From the NCBI RefSeq assembly GCF_003334335.1, contig NZ_QOWQ01000002.1: a stretch of DNA of 64,000 nucleotides. One strand, written 5' to 3'. Below are positions 59,847-64,000 of the stretch, in pieces. Below the pieces are notes generated by a model, which saw nothing but the letters and a program-made list of their open reading frames with translations, searched no databases and was not told the origin of the DNA. The DNA is from Escherichia coli (GTDB lineage: Bacteria; Pseudomonadota; Gammaproteobacteria; Enterobacterales; Enterobacteriaceae). A program made the position numbers and the translations under genes. Every line of letters starts with the position of its first letter. Position 1 is the stretch's first letter.

Positions 59847-60530
59847 TTAAATGCCGAGTGGGAAAATATCATAGCCTTGTTCTTGCCAACTGGTGAGTTG
59901 CTGTTGTTGGGCGGAGGTTCGATTTTCACCGCACCACACCAGCAATGTACGGCCTTCGAACAGTTCAGGGCGTAGTTGATTGAGCGAGTGGGCGAGGACA
60001 TCAATGCGCCATCCTTGTTGACTGGCAATCCAGCCCTCCAGCCACAGACGGGTGGTATCGTGAATATTCCAGCCAACCACCAGCGCATCTTTACCCTTTT
60101 TTTTACGTGCCGAAGCCAGACAGATGGCGATGTAGTTGATCAGTACGCCGTCGAGGATCGCCAGCAGCGCCTGGAGAGTCGGTTGTTGGCACTGAAGCCG
60201 TCGACGCAGAGGAATAAACAAATGCGTGGTGAGCGTCTGGGCGGGGTAATCCTGACCGCGCTCTTTGATCCACGTTCGCAGGCTATGCAGATTGCCGCTT
60301 TGCAAGTAAGTCAGTAATGTTTCTTGCTGATCGCGCCAGCCGTTCTGCACATCAACATTTTCATTACTGAGCAGCATTTTAACTTTGCTGACCTGCACGC
60401 CGTTGTCGATCCAGCGTTTGATCTCGCGGATCCGGTCAATATCGGCATCGTTGAACAGCCGATGACCGCCGTCTGTCCGTTGCGGTTTCAGCAATCCGTA
60501 ACGCCTCTGCCACGCGCGTAACGTGACAGG
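59847..60530 (-). pseudogene. mlrA: MerR-family regulator MlrA (YehV), 5'-truncated by prophage insertion
   Basis: Minus-strand frame matches MlrA from ...PVTLRAWQRRYGLLKPQRTDGGHRLF to the C-terminus; upstream of ~60530 the frame has no ATG and hits a stop at 60564-60566, with integrase next door. Confidence 0.85.
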
Positions 60531-60568
60531 GATTAAGGGTAAACTAACTGATTTTACAAGTTTTTATT

Positions 60569-61855
60569 TTACCCCACTTTCTTATGGGGCATACATGGGA
60601 CACTTTCAGATAGTCTTTTGTTAAGGAGTTCTATCTGTTCGTGATTGTTGTCTTTCATCCATGCTCCGTAAACATTGAATACCATTTGTGCGTTTATGTG
60701 GCCCATCTGGCTTGCGATAAAACTAGGATTAGCTCCAGCGGCAAGTGACCAGCATGCATAAGTATGCCTGGATTGGTACGATTTTCTGTGTCTCAGACCT
60801 GCGCGTTTTAAGATACTTGTCCATGACTCCCTGATGGAGTCAACCTTGTAGTGAGGTCCGGACAACTGCTGCTGTTTTGTTACCTGAGGACTAAAAACAA
60901 AAGTGCATTTATGCACAGCAGTTCTCCCATATTCCCTCTGCTTCACCTCTACAGAATGTTGCTTTCCAAGCATGGTCATTTCCGCCTGGCTTTTAAGAGC
61001 ATCAATAGCTGGTTGAACCAGATGAATTGTCCTTCCGGTGCCTGCATCGGTTTTTGGTGGAGTGAATTCGCCAAGTTTTGTATAATTTCTACGGATGGTT
61101 ATAGTCCTTGCTTTAAGGTCTATATCTTCCCATGCCAGCGATACCAACTCCCCGTGACGAATACCCGTGTATACAGCGAGAATCCACAGGTTTTTTGTTT
61201 GTTGATGACGGCAAGCCTCAATAAAACGAATAAATTCGTCACGGGTGAGAGGATCTGGTTTTACCTTGGACTTTTTTAAGGGAGCCAGACCGTTAAATGG
61301 GTTTCCTGAGGTATAACCATTATCTGTTGCAAATTGAAACATTCCAGCTATGGTTGTCATATAGTAGTTTACCGTGACCACTGAGCGCCCTTTTATGGAA
61401 GAAGTCTTTCCATTAGAAAGCTTTTGGTAACCGGTCAACAAATCTCTCCTTACGAAAAGTAAATCCTCTTTTGTTATGGATGAAACCAGTTTTTTTTCAC
61501 CTAACATTGGTAACATGTTTTTAATTACTGACTGGTAACGGTTAAGTGCATTCGCACAAATCTCAATTTTCTTAAGGTCCAACCATTTTTCCGAAAGTGC
61601 CTTAACGGTTATCTCTCTTTTTCCCAGACCAAAGTGTTTCAGGTTAGGGGAATTAGGGAACTGCGCGGCGTAGTCGAAACTCCCCATTCTGATTGCAAAA
61701 CAAACGGAAGTGCGAAGTTCACCAGCGATCTTCCGGTTTTTGGCTGTGTCAGGAACACCGAGGTTTTCTCTGACACGTTTGCCATTATAGTGAAACCATA
61801 TACGGAGTGATCCTCCATGGTTTTCAACGCCTGTCGGGTATGATGCGTTACTCAT
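60569..61855 (-). CDS. int: Phage tyrosine integrase
   Basis: 428 aa; C-terminal catalytic region with R...HxxR...Y pattern (SRHTYACW...VFNVYGAW); placed at att junction. Confidence 0.92.
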   Translation of the reverse strand: MSNASYPTGVENHGGSLRIWFHYNGKRVRENLGVPDTAKNRKIAGELRTSVCFAIRMGSFDYAAQFPNSPNLKHFGLGKREITVKALSEKWLDLKKIEICANALNRYQSVIKNMLPMLGEKKLVSSITKEDLLFVRRDLLTGYQKLSNGKTSSIKGRSVVTVNYYMTTIAGMFQFATDNGYTSGNPFNGLAPLKKSKVKPDPLTRDEFIRFIEACRHQQTKNLWILAVYTGIRHGELVSLAWEDIDLKARTITIRRNYTKLGEFTPPKTDAGTGRTIHLVQPAIDALKSQAEMTMLGKQHSVEVKQREYGRTAVHKCTFVFSPQVTKQQQLSGPHYKVDSIRESWTSILKRAGLRHRKSYQSRHTYACWSLAAGANPSFIASQMGHINAQMVFNVYGAWMKDNNHEQIELLNKRLSESVPCMPHKKVG

Positions 61856-61888
61856 TAAACCTCCCAGACGTCCAGGAGCATTAACAGG

Positions 61889-62143
61889 TTAACCGGAACT
61901 TGCATTTTTGGCACCTGGTTGTTTCTGGTTTTCGATCCATCGCATAATTTCTTCGATGTTGTACAGGCATTCACTGTAGTGCCCCGGATCACCTTCTACA
62001 GCGTAATGGCGGTATTCTTTTCCCTGCATCCATGACTTTCTTCTTGCCCGCTCAATGGTGCCAGGCTTTAGCCCTGTTGATGCAATGAGGACTCTCTCCG
62101 TACACCATTTGCTGGGGGTTATCTGATAGATGATTGTCTGCAT
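61889..62143 (-). CDS. Putative excisionase-like small protein
   Basis: 84 aa, basic, directly upstream of int on the same strand (usual int-xis arrangement); call is by position and size, not clear homology. Confidence 0.45.
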   Translation of the reverse strand: MQTIIYQITPSKWCTERVLIASTGLKPGTIERARRKSWMQGKEYRHYAVEGDPGHYSECLYNIEEIMRWIENQKQPGAKNASSG

Positions 62144-62161
62144 GCCAACCTCATAAAATTT

Positions 62162-62299: not shown

Positions 62300-62578
62300 T
62301 TACTTCCTTTTTATGGCTCGTAATTTTTTCAGGTGCTTTTCCTGCTCAGTGTCCGCGAGAATTTTGCGGTACTCCTGGTGGTCAATATGTTCGAACAGGC
62401 AGTTTAACTCACCAATGCGTACCCGCCCGGATCGTCCGTCCATCCGTCGAAAGAACACTGAGTGCTCAGTGATGCGAGTAATCACCACGGGGTATCCAGC
62501 TCTGTCCGTGTATATCTGACCGCGTTGAATCAAAGCGAACATGTGGTTATCCCCATCGACAAATCGAGAACACAACAA
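62300..62578 (-). CDS. Hypothetical prophage protein (possibly DUF4222-like)
   Basis: 92-aa ORF (start may be at internal Met 13); same-strand tight packing in prophage early region; family recalled only loosely. Confidence 0.45.
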   Translation of the reverse strand: MLCSRFVDGDNHMFALIQRGQIYTDRAGYPVVITRITEHSVFFRRMDGRSGRVRIGELNCLFEHIDHQEYRKILADTEQEKHLKKLRAIKRK

Positions 62579-62626
62579 ACGCTGCTGCGAATACCACCCC
62601 CAGAGTTACGATTGCATCAGGCCAGC

Positions 62627-63385
62627 TCATTGATTCACCTCCTGCCTGTCGTCCGGCATTCGCTCACTACAGCTTATCCAACCATCCGGAGTTACCGGAG
62701 AGTTGCCCGATAGTGCATTCTGCTCCAGTGATGCTTTTACAAACCACGCTGCCTGAACTATAACGCCATGAATCCAGCGCAAATCAGCATCGCGATCTTT
62801 CTTTTTCATCTTTTCGCCACTTAAGGCCTTGCTTATGTGGCTGCGTACCAGGTCTTCATGTAATTCCTTCGCCTCCTCAATGGTGAAACCACCAGGCAGA
62901 AGAGCCGGAGTTACCGGAGAGCTGGTTGACGCTTCCGGGATTTCCCGAAAATTATTGGTTGACGAATTCTTGCTTTCCCGAAAGTTTCCGGACTGAAGCA
63001 TGTCGGTGCGGCAGGCGTTCCATATTTCGGCAGCAATATCGCGCTCGCTATCGGTTAATTTGTACGTGGAAACATAGCCAGAGAGCATTTCTACGTTTTC
63101 CGGAGTTGCTTCTTCCGGCACTACCGGCGCTGGCGGGGCGGCAAATAGATATCCGCCAAAGTCAGGAAGCTCTCCAATGGCCTGTACGAACTTTTGTTTG
63201 CCTACGTCAACTCCTAATGGGTAATGAGCTATAATCTTTGCCACCGGCTCTGCTTCCAGCGATACCAGTGCAATTCGTGCCAGTTCTTCCGCTTCTTCTG
63301 CTGGCAGTACAACGTTGCTACCCGGTCCGTATGTTTCGCGCCACTGCTTGATTGTCAGCAGTCGCCCTTTGGTAATAGTGATCAT
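62627..63385 (-). CDS. Hypothetical prophage protein (252 aa)
   Basis: Start overlaps stop of upstream gene (translational coupling); internal SPVTP repeats; C-terminus DGWISCSERMPDD resembles the start of DUF551-type phage proteins. Confidence 0.55.
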   Translation of the reverse strand: MITITKGRLLTIKQWRETYGPGSNVVLPAEEAEELARIALVSLEAEPVAKIIAHYPLGVDVGKQKFVQAIGELPDFGGYLFAAPPAPVVPEEATPENVEMLSGYVSTYKLTDSERDIAAEIWNACRTDMLQSGNFRESKNSSTNNFREIPEASTSSPVTPALLPGGFTIEEAKELHEDLVRSHISKALSGEKMKKKDRDADLRWIHGVIVQAAWFVKASLEQNALSGNSPVTPDGWISCSERMPDDRQEVNQ

Positions 63386-63897
63386 GCCGCGTTTCCTTCT
63401 TTCTTATTAACAATCACACCGTCATATATTTCATTAAGGTGCCCTCTCAACTCCATGCGCCTTAATGCAGATAACATGTAATCGCATTCAACCTGCTTAT
63501 TCCCAGTAAATGGCTTATCGTCAGGATTACCCCAACAGCAATTACCCCTGGGCCATCCATGTACTTTCCGTACTCTTCCGTTAACAACGTGAAGTAATCC
63601 CCAGCCGGGAGGTAAATCCTCAACTGAAATAATTTCCGGCTCACTAATAAAGAATCGCCAGTCGCCCATGCCAAGTGAGGGATTTTTACGGAAACGCTTT
63701 TTTCTATCTGCCAACAAGTCAGCACGAGAACACTTCGCCTCTATCAGGCATGATGCTGAATTTCTGAATCCCATAGCATCTGGCTGTTCTCCGGTACTGG
63801 TTACAGCAACAAAGCGGTCATGAAAGCAAACCTTGAACCCGTTGCGCTTAAGGAACTTGTACGCAATCTGACAGAGTTCGTGGTGTGTTAACGCCAT
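63382..63897 (-). CDS. Putative PD-(D/E)xK-family nuclease-like prophage protein
   Basis: Track ORF 63382..63930 begins at TTG; ATG at 63895-63897 with AGGAG RBS gives ~171 aa (MALTHHELCQIAYKFL...); contains D...IEAKC (D-x(n)-E-x-K) motif. Confidence 0.5.
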   Translation of the reverse strand: MALTHHELCQIAYKFLKRNGFKVCFHDRFVAVTSTGEQPDAMGFRNSASCLIEAKCSRADLLADRKKRFRKNPSLGMGDWRFFISEPEIISVEDLPPGWGLLHVVNGRVRKVHGWPRGNCCWGNPDDKPFTGNKQVECDYMLSALRRMELRGHLNEIYDGVIVNKKEGNAA

Positions 63898-63898
63898 A

Positions 63899-64000
63899 TC
63901 ACTCTCCTTTGATGCGAATGCCTGTTGCAATGCTGTTTATGATGCTGTCAGTGCATGGGGTAGAAAGCTGGGCATCTCCAGCAATTTTCATGACCTCAAC
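63899..64000 (-). CDS. Hypothetical prophage protein, C-terminal fragment (gene starts beyond window end)
   Basis: Open minus-strand frame ...VEVMKIAGDAQLSTPCTDSIINSIATGIRIKGE ending in TGA just before the next gene's ATG. Confidence 0.35.
   Translation of the reverse strand, partial: VEVMKIAGDAQLSTPCTDSIINSIATGIRIKGE

What the first reader, a model, noticed from the sequence alone, without database searches (positions are those of the whole stretch)
59847..64000. Lambdoid prophage inserted in the 5' part of mlrA (yehV)
The host mlrA reading frame matches MlrA down to the C-terminus but breaks at ~60531-60540, where AT-richer DNA encoding a 428-aa tyrosine integrase, a putative excisionase and further same-strand small genes begins. 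The promoter and first ~15 codons of mlrA are absent here and should lie at the far end of the prophage. mlrA (yehV) is a documented lambdoid prophage integration site in E. coli O157:H7, where the Stx1-converting prophage sits and where the insertion limits csgD-dependent curli and biofilm formation. Whether this prophage carries stx or other cargo cannot be judged from the 3.5 kb in view.
Basis: partly seen in the sequence, partly recalled or inferred. Interest (0 to 1): 0.7.

Follow-up and report, generated by a model that had tools for sequence, protein, structure and literature searches.

The report
Lambdoid prophage end splitting mlrA
The last 3.5 kb of the window is the integrase end of a lambda-like prophage inserted in the curli/biofilm regulator gene mlrA (yehV), at the same 20-bp site and with almost the same integrase as the Stx1 phage of E. 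coli O157:H7 Sakai; this is a common, well-documented arrangement.

Summary
mlrA on the minus strand is intact from codon 17 to its stop (59847-60529). It breaks at 60529/60530, directly after a 20-bp core, CACGCGCGTAACGTGACAGG (60510-60529). This core is the attachment site annotated for phage VT1-Sakai (Sp15) in yehV. In related lysogens it recurs at the far prophage end, next to the missing 16 codons and the promoter. The adjoining DNA encodes a 428-aa lambda-type integrase that matches Sp15 Int at 426 of 428 residues. It also encodes an 84-aa excisionase identical to Sp15 Xis, followed by early-left lambdoid genes. The phage part differs by one base in 3,471 from Escherichia phage PhiR5_1 (PV340545.1), a 51-kb lambda-like phage in which I found no stx. 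The same junction is present in 458 of 5,426 complete E. coli genomes. The published diagnostic primers give the expected 824-bp product on the window. The loss removes the promoter, the start codon and the first 13 positions of the MerR HTH domain, so a null allele is the likely result. The remnant is identical to intact alleles elsewhere, so precise excision would restore the gene. Not shown here: whether this prophage is complete, and its cargo. Already known; low interest.

The parts
59847..60529 (-). mlrA (yehV) 3' remnant, codons 17-243 plus the stop. It lacks the promoter, the start codon and codons 1-16.
   Evidence: Translation. NCBIfam NF011617 MlrA, 509 bits, model positions 17-243 of 243. 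Comparison with K-12 mlrA shows 9 synonymous and 3 non-synonymous codon differences (Q161K, Q173H, H236Y). Window 59700-60529, which contains the whole remnant, is 100% identical to intact-mlrA strains such as UMNF18.
60510..60529 (.). Core attachment sequence CACGCGCGTAACGTGACAGG. It lies in mlrA codons 17-23 and is one of the two direct repeats that bound the prophage. The window junction is the int-proximal one, BOP'-like, i.e. attL in lambda terms.
   Evidence: The same 20 bp occurs once in K-12 attB and at both prophage ends in G1/2 and VT1-Sakai. It is identical to the misc_recomb 'attachment site' feature of AP000400.1.
60530..60568 (.). Start of the phage DNA (P' arm): a 39-bp spacer between the core and the int stop codon. 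It replaces mlrA codons 1-16, provides no start codon, and has an in-frame TAA.
   Evidence: The phage record PV340545.1 begins GGATTAAGGG, which is window 60530. Translation. The scan found no terminator-like site between int and the mlrA remnant.
60584..60605 (+). Two 11-bp-phased copies of ATGGGRCA (ATGGGGCATAC ATGGGACACTT). These are candidate arm-type Int-binding sites of the P' arm and overlap the last codons of int.
   Evidence: Five of the 7 occurrences of the motif in the 51-kb PhiR5_1 genome lie within about 155 bp of the core, all in one orientation: 2 at +54/+65 and 3 at -122 to -144 on the other arm. The same layout is seen in VT1-Sakai and in G1/2, which has 4 copies on the far arm. 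Binding is inferred, not shown.
60569..61855 (-). int: a 428-aa lambda-type (heterobivalent) tyrosine integrase.
   Evidence: Pfam Arm-DNA-bind_2 7-70, SAM-like 83-131 and Phage_integrase 203-396. PHROG 1. 426/428 identical to VT1-Sakai Int and identical to PhiR5_1 and G1/2 Int. Candidate catalytic residues R233, K268, R363, H386 and Y396 come from motif positions and the alignment to Tn1549 Int, 6emy.
61889..62143 (-). xis: an 84-aa excisionase.
   Evidence: PHROG 539 excisionase, E = 1.6e-37. PF06806. 100% identical to VT1-Sakai Xis. Annotated xisR in RefSeq relatives.
62162..62296 (-). 44-aa phage ORF of unknown function.
   Evidence: PHROG 3871. Annotated as a CDS in PhiR5_1. In G1/2 it is a pseudogene, where the window differs at 62273.
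62300..62542 (-). 80-aa DUF4222-family phage protein.
   Evidence: PHROG 285. Annotated as DUF4222 domain-containing in RefSeq relatives.
62627..63385 (-). 252-aa early-left phage protein, labelled 'Ea22' or 'phage protein', with only the first 16 positions of a DUF551 domain at its C-terminus.
   Evidence: PHROG 60/660. Pfam DUF551 at residues 235-250, model positions 1-16 of 68. Annotations. The window's single difference from PhiR5_1 (63003) lies here.
63382..63897 (-). 171-aa phage protein of unknown function.
   Evidence: PHROG 9263/631. No Pfam, PDB-sequence, NCBIfam or PADLOC match. Annotated as a CDS in PhiR5_1 at 2853-3368.
63899..64000 (-). 3' end of the next early-left gene (ea22-like), cut off by the end of the window.
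   Evidence: By position it corresponds to PhiR5_1 CDS 3370-3918, 'Ea22', and to the G1/2 'ead/Ea22-like family protein'.

Best explanation
Window 60530-64000 is the integrase-proximal end of a lambdoid prophage of the Sp15/CP-933V/BP-4795/PhiR5_1 integration type. The prophage entered the chromosome by Int-mediated site-specific recombination between its attP and a 20-bp identical core in codons 17-23 of mlrA (yehV).

**Shown here**
- The core is duplicated at both prophage ends in relatives.
- The window holds the host-core-P' junction, followed by int, xis and early-left genes, all co-directional with the mlrA remnant.
- The mlrA promoter, start codon and first 16 codons are displaced. In relatives they sit about 50-56 kb away, next to btsS.

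**Inferred**
- Int binds the core through its catalytic and core-binding domains. Its N-terminal arm domain binds the 11-bp-phased ATGGGRCA repeats on both arms, as in lambda intasomes, and Xis directs excision.
- The remnant is a null allele. It lacks the promoter, the start codon and the first 13 positions of the MerR HTH domain (residues 4-72 in K-12 MlrA). MlrA-dependent csgD activation, and therefore curli and biofilm formation, should be reduced.
- Precise excision would recreate an intact gene, because the remnant is base-for-base identical to functional alleles.
- The prophage is probably a non-Stx lambda-like phage related to PhiR5_1.
For: - **Junction and core:**
- **Int and Xis:** near-identity to Sp15; domain architecture.
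- **Relatives:** one mismatch in 3,471 bases to PhiR5_1, which has a complete lambda gene order. A full-length prophage with the second junction in G1/2.
- **Frequency:** the junction is present in 458 of 5,426 complete genomes.
- **Diagnostic PCR in silico:** the published yehV left-junction primers F and B sit at 61021-61040 and 60217-60239. They give 824 bp, the size reported in PMC3874044.
- **HTH loss:** MerR_1 spans residues 4-72 of K-12 MlrA, and the NCBIfam MlrA model is matched only from position 17.
- **No decay:** the remnant allele is identical to intact alleles.
- **Phenotype in the literature:** prophage insertion in mlrA limits curli and biofilm, and mlrA in trans complements this in some strains (PMC3874044).
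- **stx:** absent from both closest relatives.
Against: - Only 3.47 kb of the prophage is visible. Its completeness, inducibility and cargo in this genome are not shown.
- The first 3.9 kb is shared at 99.6% or better by prophages whose interiors differ. PhiR5_1 and the G1/2 prophage share only about 20 of 51 kb, so identity over the visible part does not fix the rest.
- Truncated prophages at yehV are reported in stx1-negative O157 strains (cited in PMC8309913).
- The arm-site assignment and the null phenotype are inferences. RefSeq (PGAP) annotates the same remnant as a 228-aa MlrA with a non-canonical ATC start. Some O145 strains with the insertion were not complemented by mlrA (PMC3874044), so phenotype depends on genetic background.
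Confidence: 0.95

Rival explanations
1. This is a degraded or truncated prophage remnant: an int-xis-early-gene island that can no longer form phage, rather than a complete inducible prophage.
For: The window ends 3.5 kb into the element, so nothing beyond the early-left genes is seen. Truncated phages at yehV are reported in most stx1-negative O157:H7 strains examined (cited in PMC8309913). The closest chromosomal relative, G1/2, has many genes flagged as frameshifted, including capsid, portal, tail and J.
Against: All six complete ORFs in view are intact. This includes the 44-aa ORF that is a pseudogene in G1/2. The visible part differs by one base in 3,471 from PhiR5_1, a deposited 'complete genome' phage whose listed host is E. 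coli C. The G1/2 frameshifts could be assembly errors.
Confidence: 0.25
2. The prophage is an Stx-converting phage, as at this site in O157:H7 Sakai and EDL933.
For: The Int/Xis/att module is essentially that of Stx1 phage VT1-Sakai. The same module occurs in BP-4795, YYZ-2008 and the Stx2a phages 1447 and WGPS2 at 95-96% nucleotide identity.
Against: The nearest matches are PhiR5_1 (one mismatch) and the G1/2 prophage (two mismatches). Both lack stx1 by BLAST and have no stx annotated between Q and the lysis genes. VT1-Sakai is only 96% identical and covers 77% of the visible part. The host flank is nearly identical to G1/2, an isolate from a healthy person.
Confidence: 0.08
3. The break in mlrA is an assembly chimera or a mis-join, and mlrA is intact in the real genome.
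For: None beyond the fact that the window ends inside the element.
Against: The identical junction is found in 458 independently assembled complete genomes. It falls exactly at an annotated phage attachment core. The mlrA 5' fragment is absent from the other 60 kb of the window.
Confidence: 0.01

Closest known systems
Stx1-converting prophage VT1-Sakai (Sp15) of E. coli O157:H7 Sakai, and its EDL933 counterpart CP-933V, integrated in yehV/mlrA
   Same: Same 20-bp att core. Same insertion point in mlrA codons 17-23. Same orientation, with int next to the mlrA 3' remnant. Int is 426/428 identical and Xis 84/84 identical. The ATGGGRCA repeats are at the same distances on both arms.
   Different: Only about 77% of the visible 3.47 kb aligns, at 96% nucleotide identity, and the genes between xis and ea22 differ. 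The closest full-length relatives of the window's phage lack stx1. They share only about 20 kb of 51 kb with VT1-Sakai.
Escherichia phage PhiR5_1 (PV340545.1; 50,981 bp)
   Same: One mismatch in 3,471 bases over everything visible, and the record starts exactly at window 60530. It has the full lambda-like gene order.
   Different: Whether the rest of the window's prophage equals PhiR5_1 is unknown. The deposited record lacks 18 bp of the core at its ends, which suggests it was cut out of a lysogen sequence (inference). The naming and the source of the phage panel (Brenes & Laub 2025, cited in PMC13190303) could not be read here.
Prophage at mlrA in commensal E. coli strain G1/2 (NZ_CP060083.1)
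   Same: Same junction, identical Int, and two mismatches in the visible phage part. The host flank is 99.96-100% identical over window 1-47,280, and mismatches stay sparse to about 54 kb. It shows the second junction with the mlrA 5' fragment.
   Different: The prophage interior is a different mosaic, with yfdP/Q/R-type early genes and HK97-type heads. The host DNA from about 54.3 to 60.3 kb is 2-3% divergent from the window.
Bacteriophage lambda integration (Int/Xis/attP with arm-type and core-type sites)
   Same: Heterobivalent Int with an N-terminal arm-binding domain. int-xis lies adjacent to att. A short core is duplicated at attL and attR. There are clustered repeats on both arms, and the int 3' end lies within the P' arm.
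   Different: The core, arm motif and target differ: lambda integrates between gal and bio, not inside a gene. Int has no significant hit to lambda Int among PDB sequences; the best hit is Tn1549 Int at E = 2e-7. Xis belongs to PF06806, not the lambda Xis family (the lambda family assignment is from general knowledge).

Membership tests
Lambdoid prophage integrated at the yehV/mlrA att site (Sp15/CP-933V type) | Insertion at the specific 20-bp core within the 5' part of mlrA | tested here: met
   Window 60510-60529 is CACGCGCGTAACGTGACAGG, identical to the att feature of AP000400.1. Host homology ends at 60529.
Lambdoid prophage integrated at the yehV/mlrA att site (Sp15/CP-933V type) | Cognate integrase and excisionase adjacent to the junction | tested here: met
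   Int is 426/428 identical and Xis 84/84 identical to the VT1-Sakai proteins. int begins 39 bp from the core.
Lambdoid prophage integrated at the yehV/mlrA att site (Sp15/CP-933V type) | Second junction carrying a direct repeat of the core and the mlrA 5' fragment | not testable with these tools
   It lies beyond the window end. It is present in G1/2 and VT1-Sakai. The mlrA 5' primer sequence is absent from the window.
Lambdoid prophage integrated at the yehV/mlrA att site (Sp15/CP-933V type) | Lambdoid gene order: early-left recombination genes, immunity, replication, Q, lysis, head and tail | tested here: inconclusive
   Only int, xis and ea-type early-left genes are visible. The full order is present in PhiR5_1, which differs by one base over the visible part, and in G1/2.
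Lambda-type (heterobivalent) tyrosine integrases | N-terminal arm-DNA-binding domain plus core-binding and catalytic domains, with the conserved R-K-R-H-Y active-site residues | tested here: met
   Pfam Arm-DNA-bind_2 (E = 1e-23), SAM-like, and Phage_integrase (E = 6e-17). R233, K268, R363, H386 and Y396 were located by motif and by alignment to 6emy. The first-His position is Tyr360.
Lambda-type (heterobivalent) tyrosine integrases | Arm-type binding sites on both att arms, distinct from the core | tested here: inconclusive
   ATGGGRCA repeats with 11-bp phasing cluster on both arms in three phages. The total motif count (7) is within the range of mononucleotide shuffles (mean 3.2, maximum 8). 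The clustering at att is the argument, and binding was not tested.
Stx-converting phages | stxA and stxB between Q and the lysis genes | not testable with these tools
   That region is outside the window. stx1 is absent by BLAST from PhiR5_1 and from the G1/2 prophage, and no stx is annotated in either.
MlrA (MerR-family activator of csgD) | Complete MerR-type HTH (residues 4-72), helical domain and C-terminal domain, expressed from its own promoter | tested here: not met
   The remnant matches the NCBIfam MlrA model only from position 17. The HTH domain boundaries come from K-12 MlrA. There is no start codon before L30 (TTG) and there is an in-frame stop upstream.

The most novel reading that the evidence does not exclude
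The prophage could act as a reversible switch (active lysogeny). The remnant has not decayed and int-xis is intact, so regulated or SOS-triggered excision in a subpopulation would rebuild a functional mlrA. That would turn on csgD-dependent curli and biofilm in a commensal (non-O157) background. The idea that prophage induction may restore some mlrA function has already been raised for O157:H7 (PMC5931665 abstract), so even this reading is only moderately new.
Probability: 0.1. Interest if true: 0.4.

Novelty: already known. Interest (0 to 1): 0.12.

Why it matters
For this genome it predicts a phenotype: MlrA-dependent csgD activation is probably lost, so curli and biofilm formation at low temperature should be reduced unless the prophage excises. 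It also shows that the integration module of the O157:H7 Stx1 phage circulates on non-Stx lambda-like phages in commensal-type E. coli. About 8% of complete genomes (458 of 5,426) carry this junction, so the site is occupied, and perhaps competed for, well beyond STEC. A practical point: RefSeq annotates the truncated gene as a 228-aa 'MlrA' with an ATC start. Gene presence/absence tables will therefore miss the disruption. None of this is new biology.

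Tried and rejected
- **Source genome.** I looked for the window's own genome among 5,426 complete E. coli assemblies. The best match was 99.4% over 24.5 kb, so it is not there.
- **Source paper for the PhiR phages.** Brenes & Laub 2025 is not held. I found only citations to it.
- **Decay of the remnant.** The three amino-acid differences from K-12 looked like possible decay. I rejected this because the same allele is intact in many strains.
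- **A translational fusion or restart for the remnant.** int ends in a different frame. An in-frame TAA lies 12 codons upstream of P17. The first canonical start is the TTG at L30. The scan found no promoter-like site on the minus strand and no terminator between int and the remnant.
- **The small phage proteins.** I searched Pfam, PDB sequences, NCBIfam and PADLOC for a function. Apart from DUF labels nothing matched.
- **RNA genes.** Rfam and tRNA scans found nothing in 59.7-64 kb.
- **Arm-motif statistics.** The total count of ATGGGRCA is not significant by simple shuffling. Only the positional clustering is notable.

Full report
**Observation**

On the minus strand, window 59847-60529 encodes MlrA from Pro17 to the normal stop. 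Upstream of Pro17 the frame reads K*KLVKSVSLPLI, which is unrelated to MlrA, has an in-frame stop and has no canonical start codon. Aligned with K-12 mlrA (L004), the window lacks codons 1-16 (MALYTIGEVALLCDIN) and the promoter region.

GC content falls from 0.53-0.59 in the yeh genes to 0.38-0.47 across the next gene. That gene (60569-61855, minus strand) is a 428-aa tyrosine integrase. It is followed on the same strand by an 84-aa excisionase (61889-62143) and four further complete ORFs, plus the start of a fifth at the window end. The break is at 60529/60530, and 16 codons are missing rather than about 15.

**The junction is a phage attachment site**

I compared four sequences: the window junction, the empty site in K-12, the far end of the prophage in the closest complete genome (strain G1/2, NZ_CP060083.1), and the ends of a matching phage record. 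Together they define a 20-bp core, CACGCGCGTAACGTGACAGG (window 60510-60529).

- The core is present once in K-12 and at both ends of the prophage in lysogens.
- Beyond the core, the two junctions share a further ATTAA after a 1-base indel.
- The same 20 bases are annotated as 'attachment site of Enterobacteria phage VT1-Sakai' in AP000400.1, the Stx1 prophage Sp15 of O157:H7 Sakai.
- In G1/2 the far junction reads phage-core-ATTAATATCACAAAGCAACGCCACTTCACCAATTGTGTAAAGCGCCAT. This is the reverse complement of mlrA codons 1-16. It is followed by the mlrA promoter region and btsS.

The junction is not an artefact of this assembly. A 241-bp probe across it (60410-60650) is covered by 80% or more in 458 of 5,426 complete E. 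coli genomes, many of them O157:H7. The other genomes match only the host half.

The published diagnostic primers also fit. Primer F matches at 61021-61040. Primer B matches at 60217-60239 with three allele mismatches. The predicted product is 824 bp, the size reported for an occupied site. Primer A, in mlrA codons 9-15, is absent from the whole window.

**The integration module**

- **Int architecture.** Int has a lambda-type heterobivalent architecture: Arm-DNA-bind_2 (residues 7-70), a SAM-like core-binding region (83-131) and the Phage_integrase catalytic domain (203-396). The expected catalytic residues are R233, K268, R363, H386 and Y396.
- **Identity to relatives.** Int is 426/428 identical to VT1-Sakai Int, and identical to the integrases of PhiR5_1 and G1/2. 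Xis (PF06806) is 84/84 identical to VT1-Sakai Xis.
- **Candidate arm-type sites (my inference).** The octamer ATGGGRCA occurs twice with 11-bp phasing at +54 and +65 from the core (window 60584 and 60595, overlapping the last int codons). It occurs three or four times with the same phasing and orientation at -122 to -155 on the other arm, in PhiR5_1, VT1-Sakai and G1/2. Five of its seven occurrences in the 51-kb PhiR5_1 genome are at att. The overall count is not significant by shuffling. The argument rests on the clustering and on its conservation across three phages. Binding was not tested.

**Which phage**

The phage part (60530-64000) differs by a single base (63003) from Escherichia phage PhiR5_1 (PV340545.1; 50,981 bp; host given as E. 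coli C). That record begins exactly at window 60530.

PhiR5_1 has the complete lambda gene order: int, xis, ea genes, exo/bet/gam, kil, cI/cro/cII, O/P, ren, nin genes, Q, S/R/Rz, Nu1/A through J, and lom. It also has a hipA-like toxin pair next to cI, and no stx is annotated.

The G1/2 prophage shares the first 3.9 kb at 99.6% but has a different mosaic interior. A BLAST search with the VT1-Sakai stx1AB genes finds nothing in either relative.

VT1-Sakai, YYZ-2008, BP-4795 and two Stx2a phages carry the same int-xis module at 95-96% nucleotide identity. The module therefore moves between Stx and non-Stx lambdoid phages.

What lies beyond 64000 in this genome cannot be known from the window. 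My estimate is that a non-Stx lambda-like phage is likely (about 0.9). A truncated remnant remains possible (about 0.25), given reports of truncated phages at yehV (PMC8309913).

**Consequence for mlrA**

In K-12 MlrA the MerR-type HTH domain spans residues 4-72. It is followed by the MlrA helical domain and the C-terminal domain. The remnant starts at residue 17 and matches the NCBIfam MlrA model from position 17 only. It has therefore lost the promoter, the start codon and the first 13 positions of the DNA-binding domain.

int ends in another frame 39 bp upstream, so no fusion protein is formed. The scan found no terminator-like site between int and the remnant. Read-through transcripts are therefore possible, but they would lack a translation start before the TTG at L30. 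A null allele is the most likely result; this is an inference.

The literature supports the inference. [quoted passage not shown]

The remnant shows no decay. Its three differences from K-12 (Q161K, Q173H, H236Y, alongside 9 synonymous changes) belong to a natural allele that is intact and 100% identical in UMNF18 and many other strains. Precise excision would therefore restore a functional gene.

**Context**

The rest of the window is ordinary E. coli core chromosome, running from yejB to yehW and yohO. It is 99.96-100% identical to G1/2 over window 1-47,280, and mismatches stay sparse to about 54 kb. From about 54.3 to 60.3 kb (the end of bglX, osmF-yehYXW, yohO and the mlrA remnant) the two genomes differ by 2-3%. 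Across the junction they are again nearly identical. This looks like a recombination tract abutting the prophage. I did not resolve its origin.

**Verdict**

Both the observation and the interpretation are confirmed. The feature is a textbook case: a lambdoid prophage at the yehV/mlrA site with the Sp15-type Int/Xis/att module, here most likely on a non-Stx phage in a commensal-like background. It is already known and common, so interest is low.

The only mildly open points are:
- the completeness and cargo of this particular prophage;
- the untested arm-site assignment;
- whether excision serves as a switch for mlrA, an idea already raised for O157:H7 (PMC5931665).

Noticed in passing
window 54300-60305: Against strain G1/2 the window is 99.96-100% identical over 1-47,280, with sparse mismatches to about 54 kb. 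It is then 2-3% divergent from about 54.3 kb (the 3' part of bglX) through osmF-yehYXW, yohO and the mlrA remnant. Inside the prophage it is nearly identical again (2 mismatches in 3.47 kb). This looks like a roughly 6-kb recombination tract ending at or near the att junction. It may mean the prophage and its flank were moved by homologous recombination, or that the two lineages acquired the phage independently.
   Followed up: partly
window 59847-60533 (RefSeq relatives, e.g. NZ_CP060083.1 H4P46_RS08395): PGAP annotates the truncated gene as an apparently intact 228-aa 'HTH-type transcriptional regulator MlrA', starting at a non-canonical ATC inside the phage-derived sequence. Annotation-based surveys would therefore miss the disruption.
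   Followed up: yes
window 60584-60605; PhiR5_1 50837-50866: 11-bp-phased ATGGGRCA repeats occur on both att arms and are conserved in PhiR5_1, VT1-Sakai and G1/2. They are candidate arm-type Int-binding sites. The int-proximal pair lies inside the last codons of int.
   Followed up: partly
window 63382-63897 (-): A 171-aa early-left phage protein (PHROG 9263/631) has no Pfam, NCBIfam, PADLOC or PDB-sequence match. By eye, the sequence around D51...E64-A-K66 (DAMGF...LIEAKCS) resembles a PD-(D/E)XK nuclease motif. This was not tested by structure prediction.
   Followed up: partly
window 62627-63385 (-): The 252-aa 'Ea22/phage protein' ORF ends after only the first 16 of the 68 positions of a DUF551 domain. 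This suggests a mosaic joint or a deletion at its 3' end.
   Followed up: no
window 19659-30324 vs L009 (G1/2): G1/2 carries two IS1A copies that flank an inversion of about 10.7 kb and split cirA and yeiL. The window lacks both IS1 copies and has the uninverted arrangement.
   Followed up: partly
L003 (PhiR5_1) 7915-9488: The phage that matches the window carries a gene pair annotated HipA toxin / HipD antitoxin, between kil and cI. This is a possible defence or addiction cargo. It lies outside the window, and its presence in this genome is unknown.
   Followed up: no
L003/L005 (PV340545.1) record ends: The deposited PhiR5_1 'complete genome' ends ...GTTGCGTC and starts GGATTAAGGG, so joining its ends omits 18 bp of the att core. 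The record was probably excised from a lysogen sequence rather than assembled from virion DNA.
   Followed up: partly
window 38722-38799 and 50448-50528: There are Rfam hits in the host part: naRNA4 (CssrE; 88 bits) and the Peptidase-S11 cis-regulatory RNA (73 bits), which by position appears to lie upstream of pbpG. Both are unrelated to the finding.
   Followed up: no
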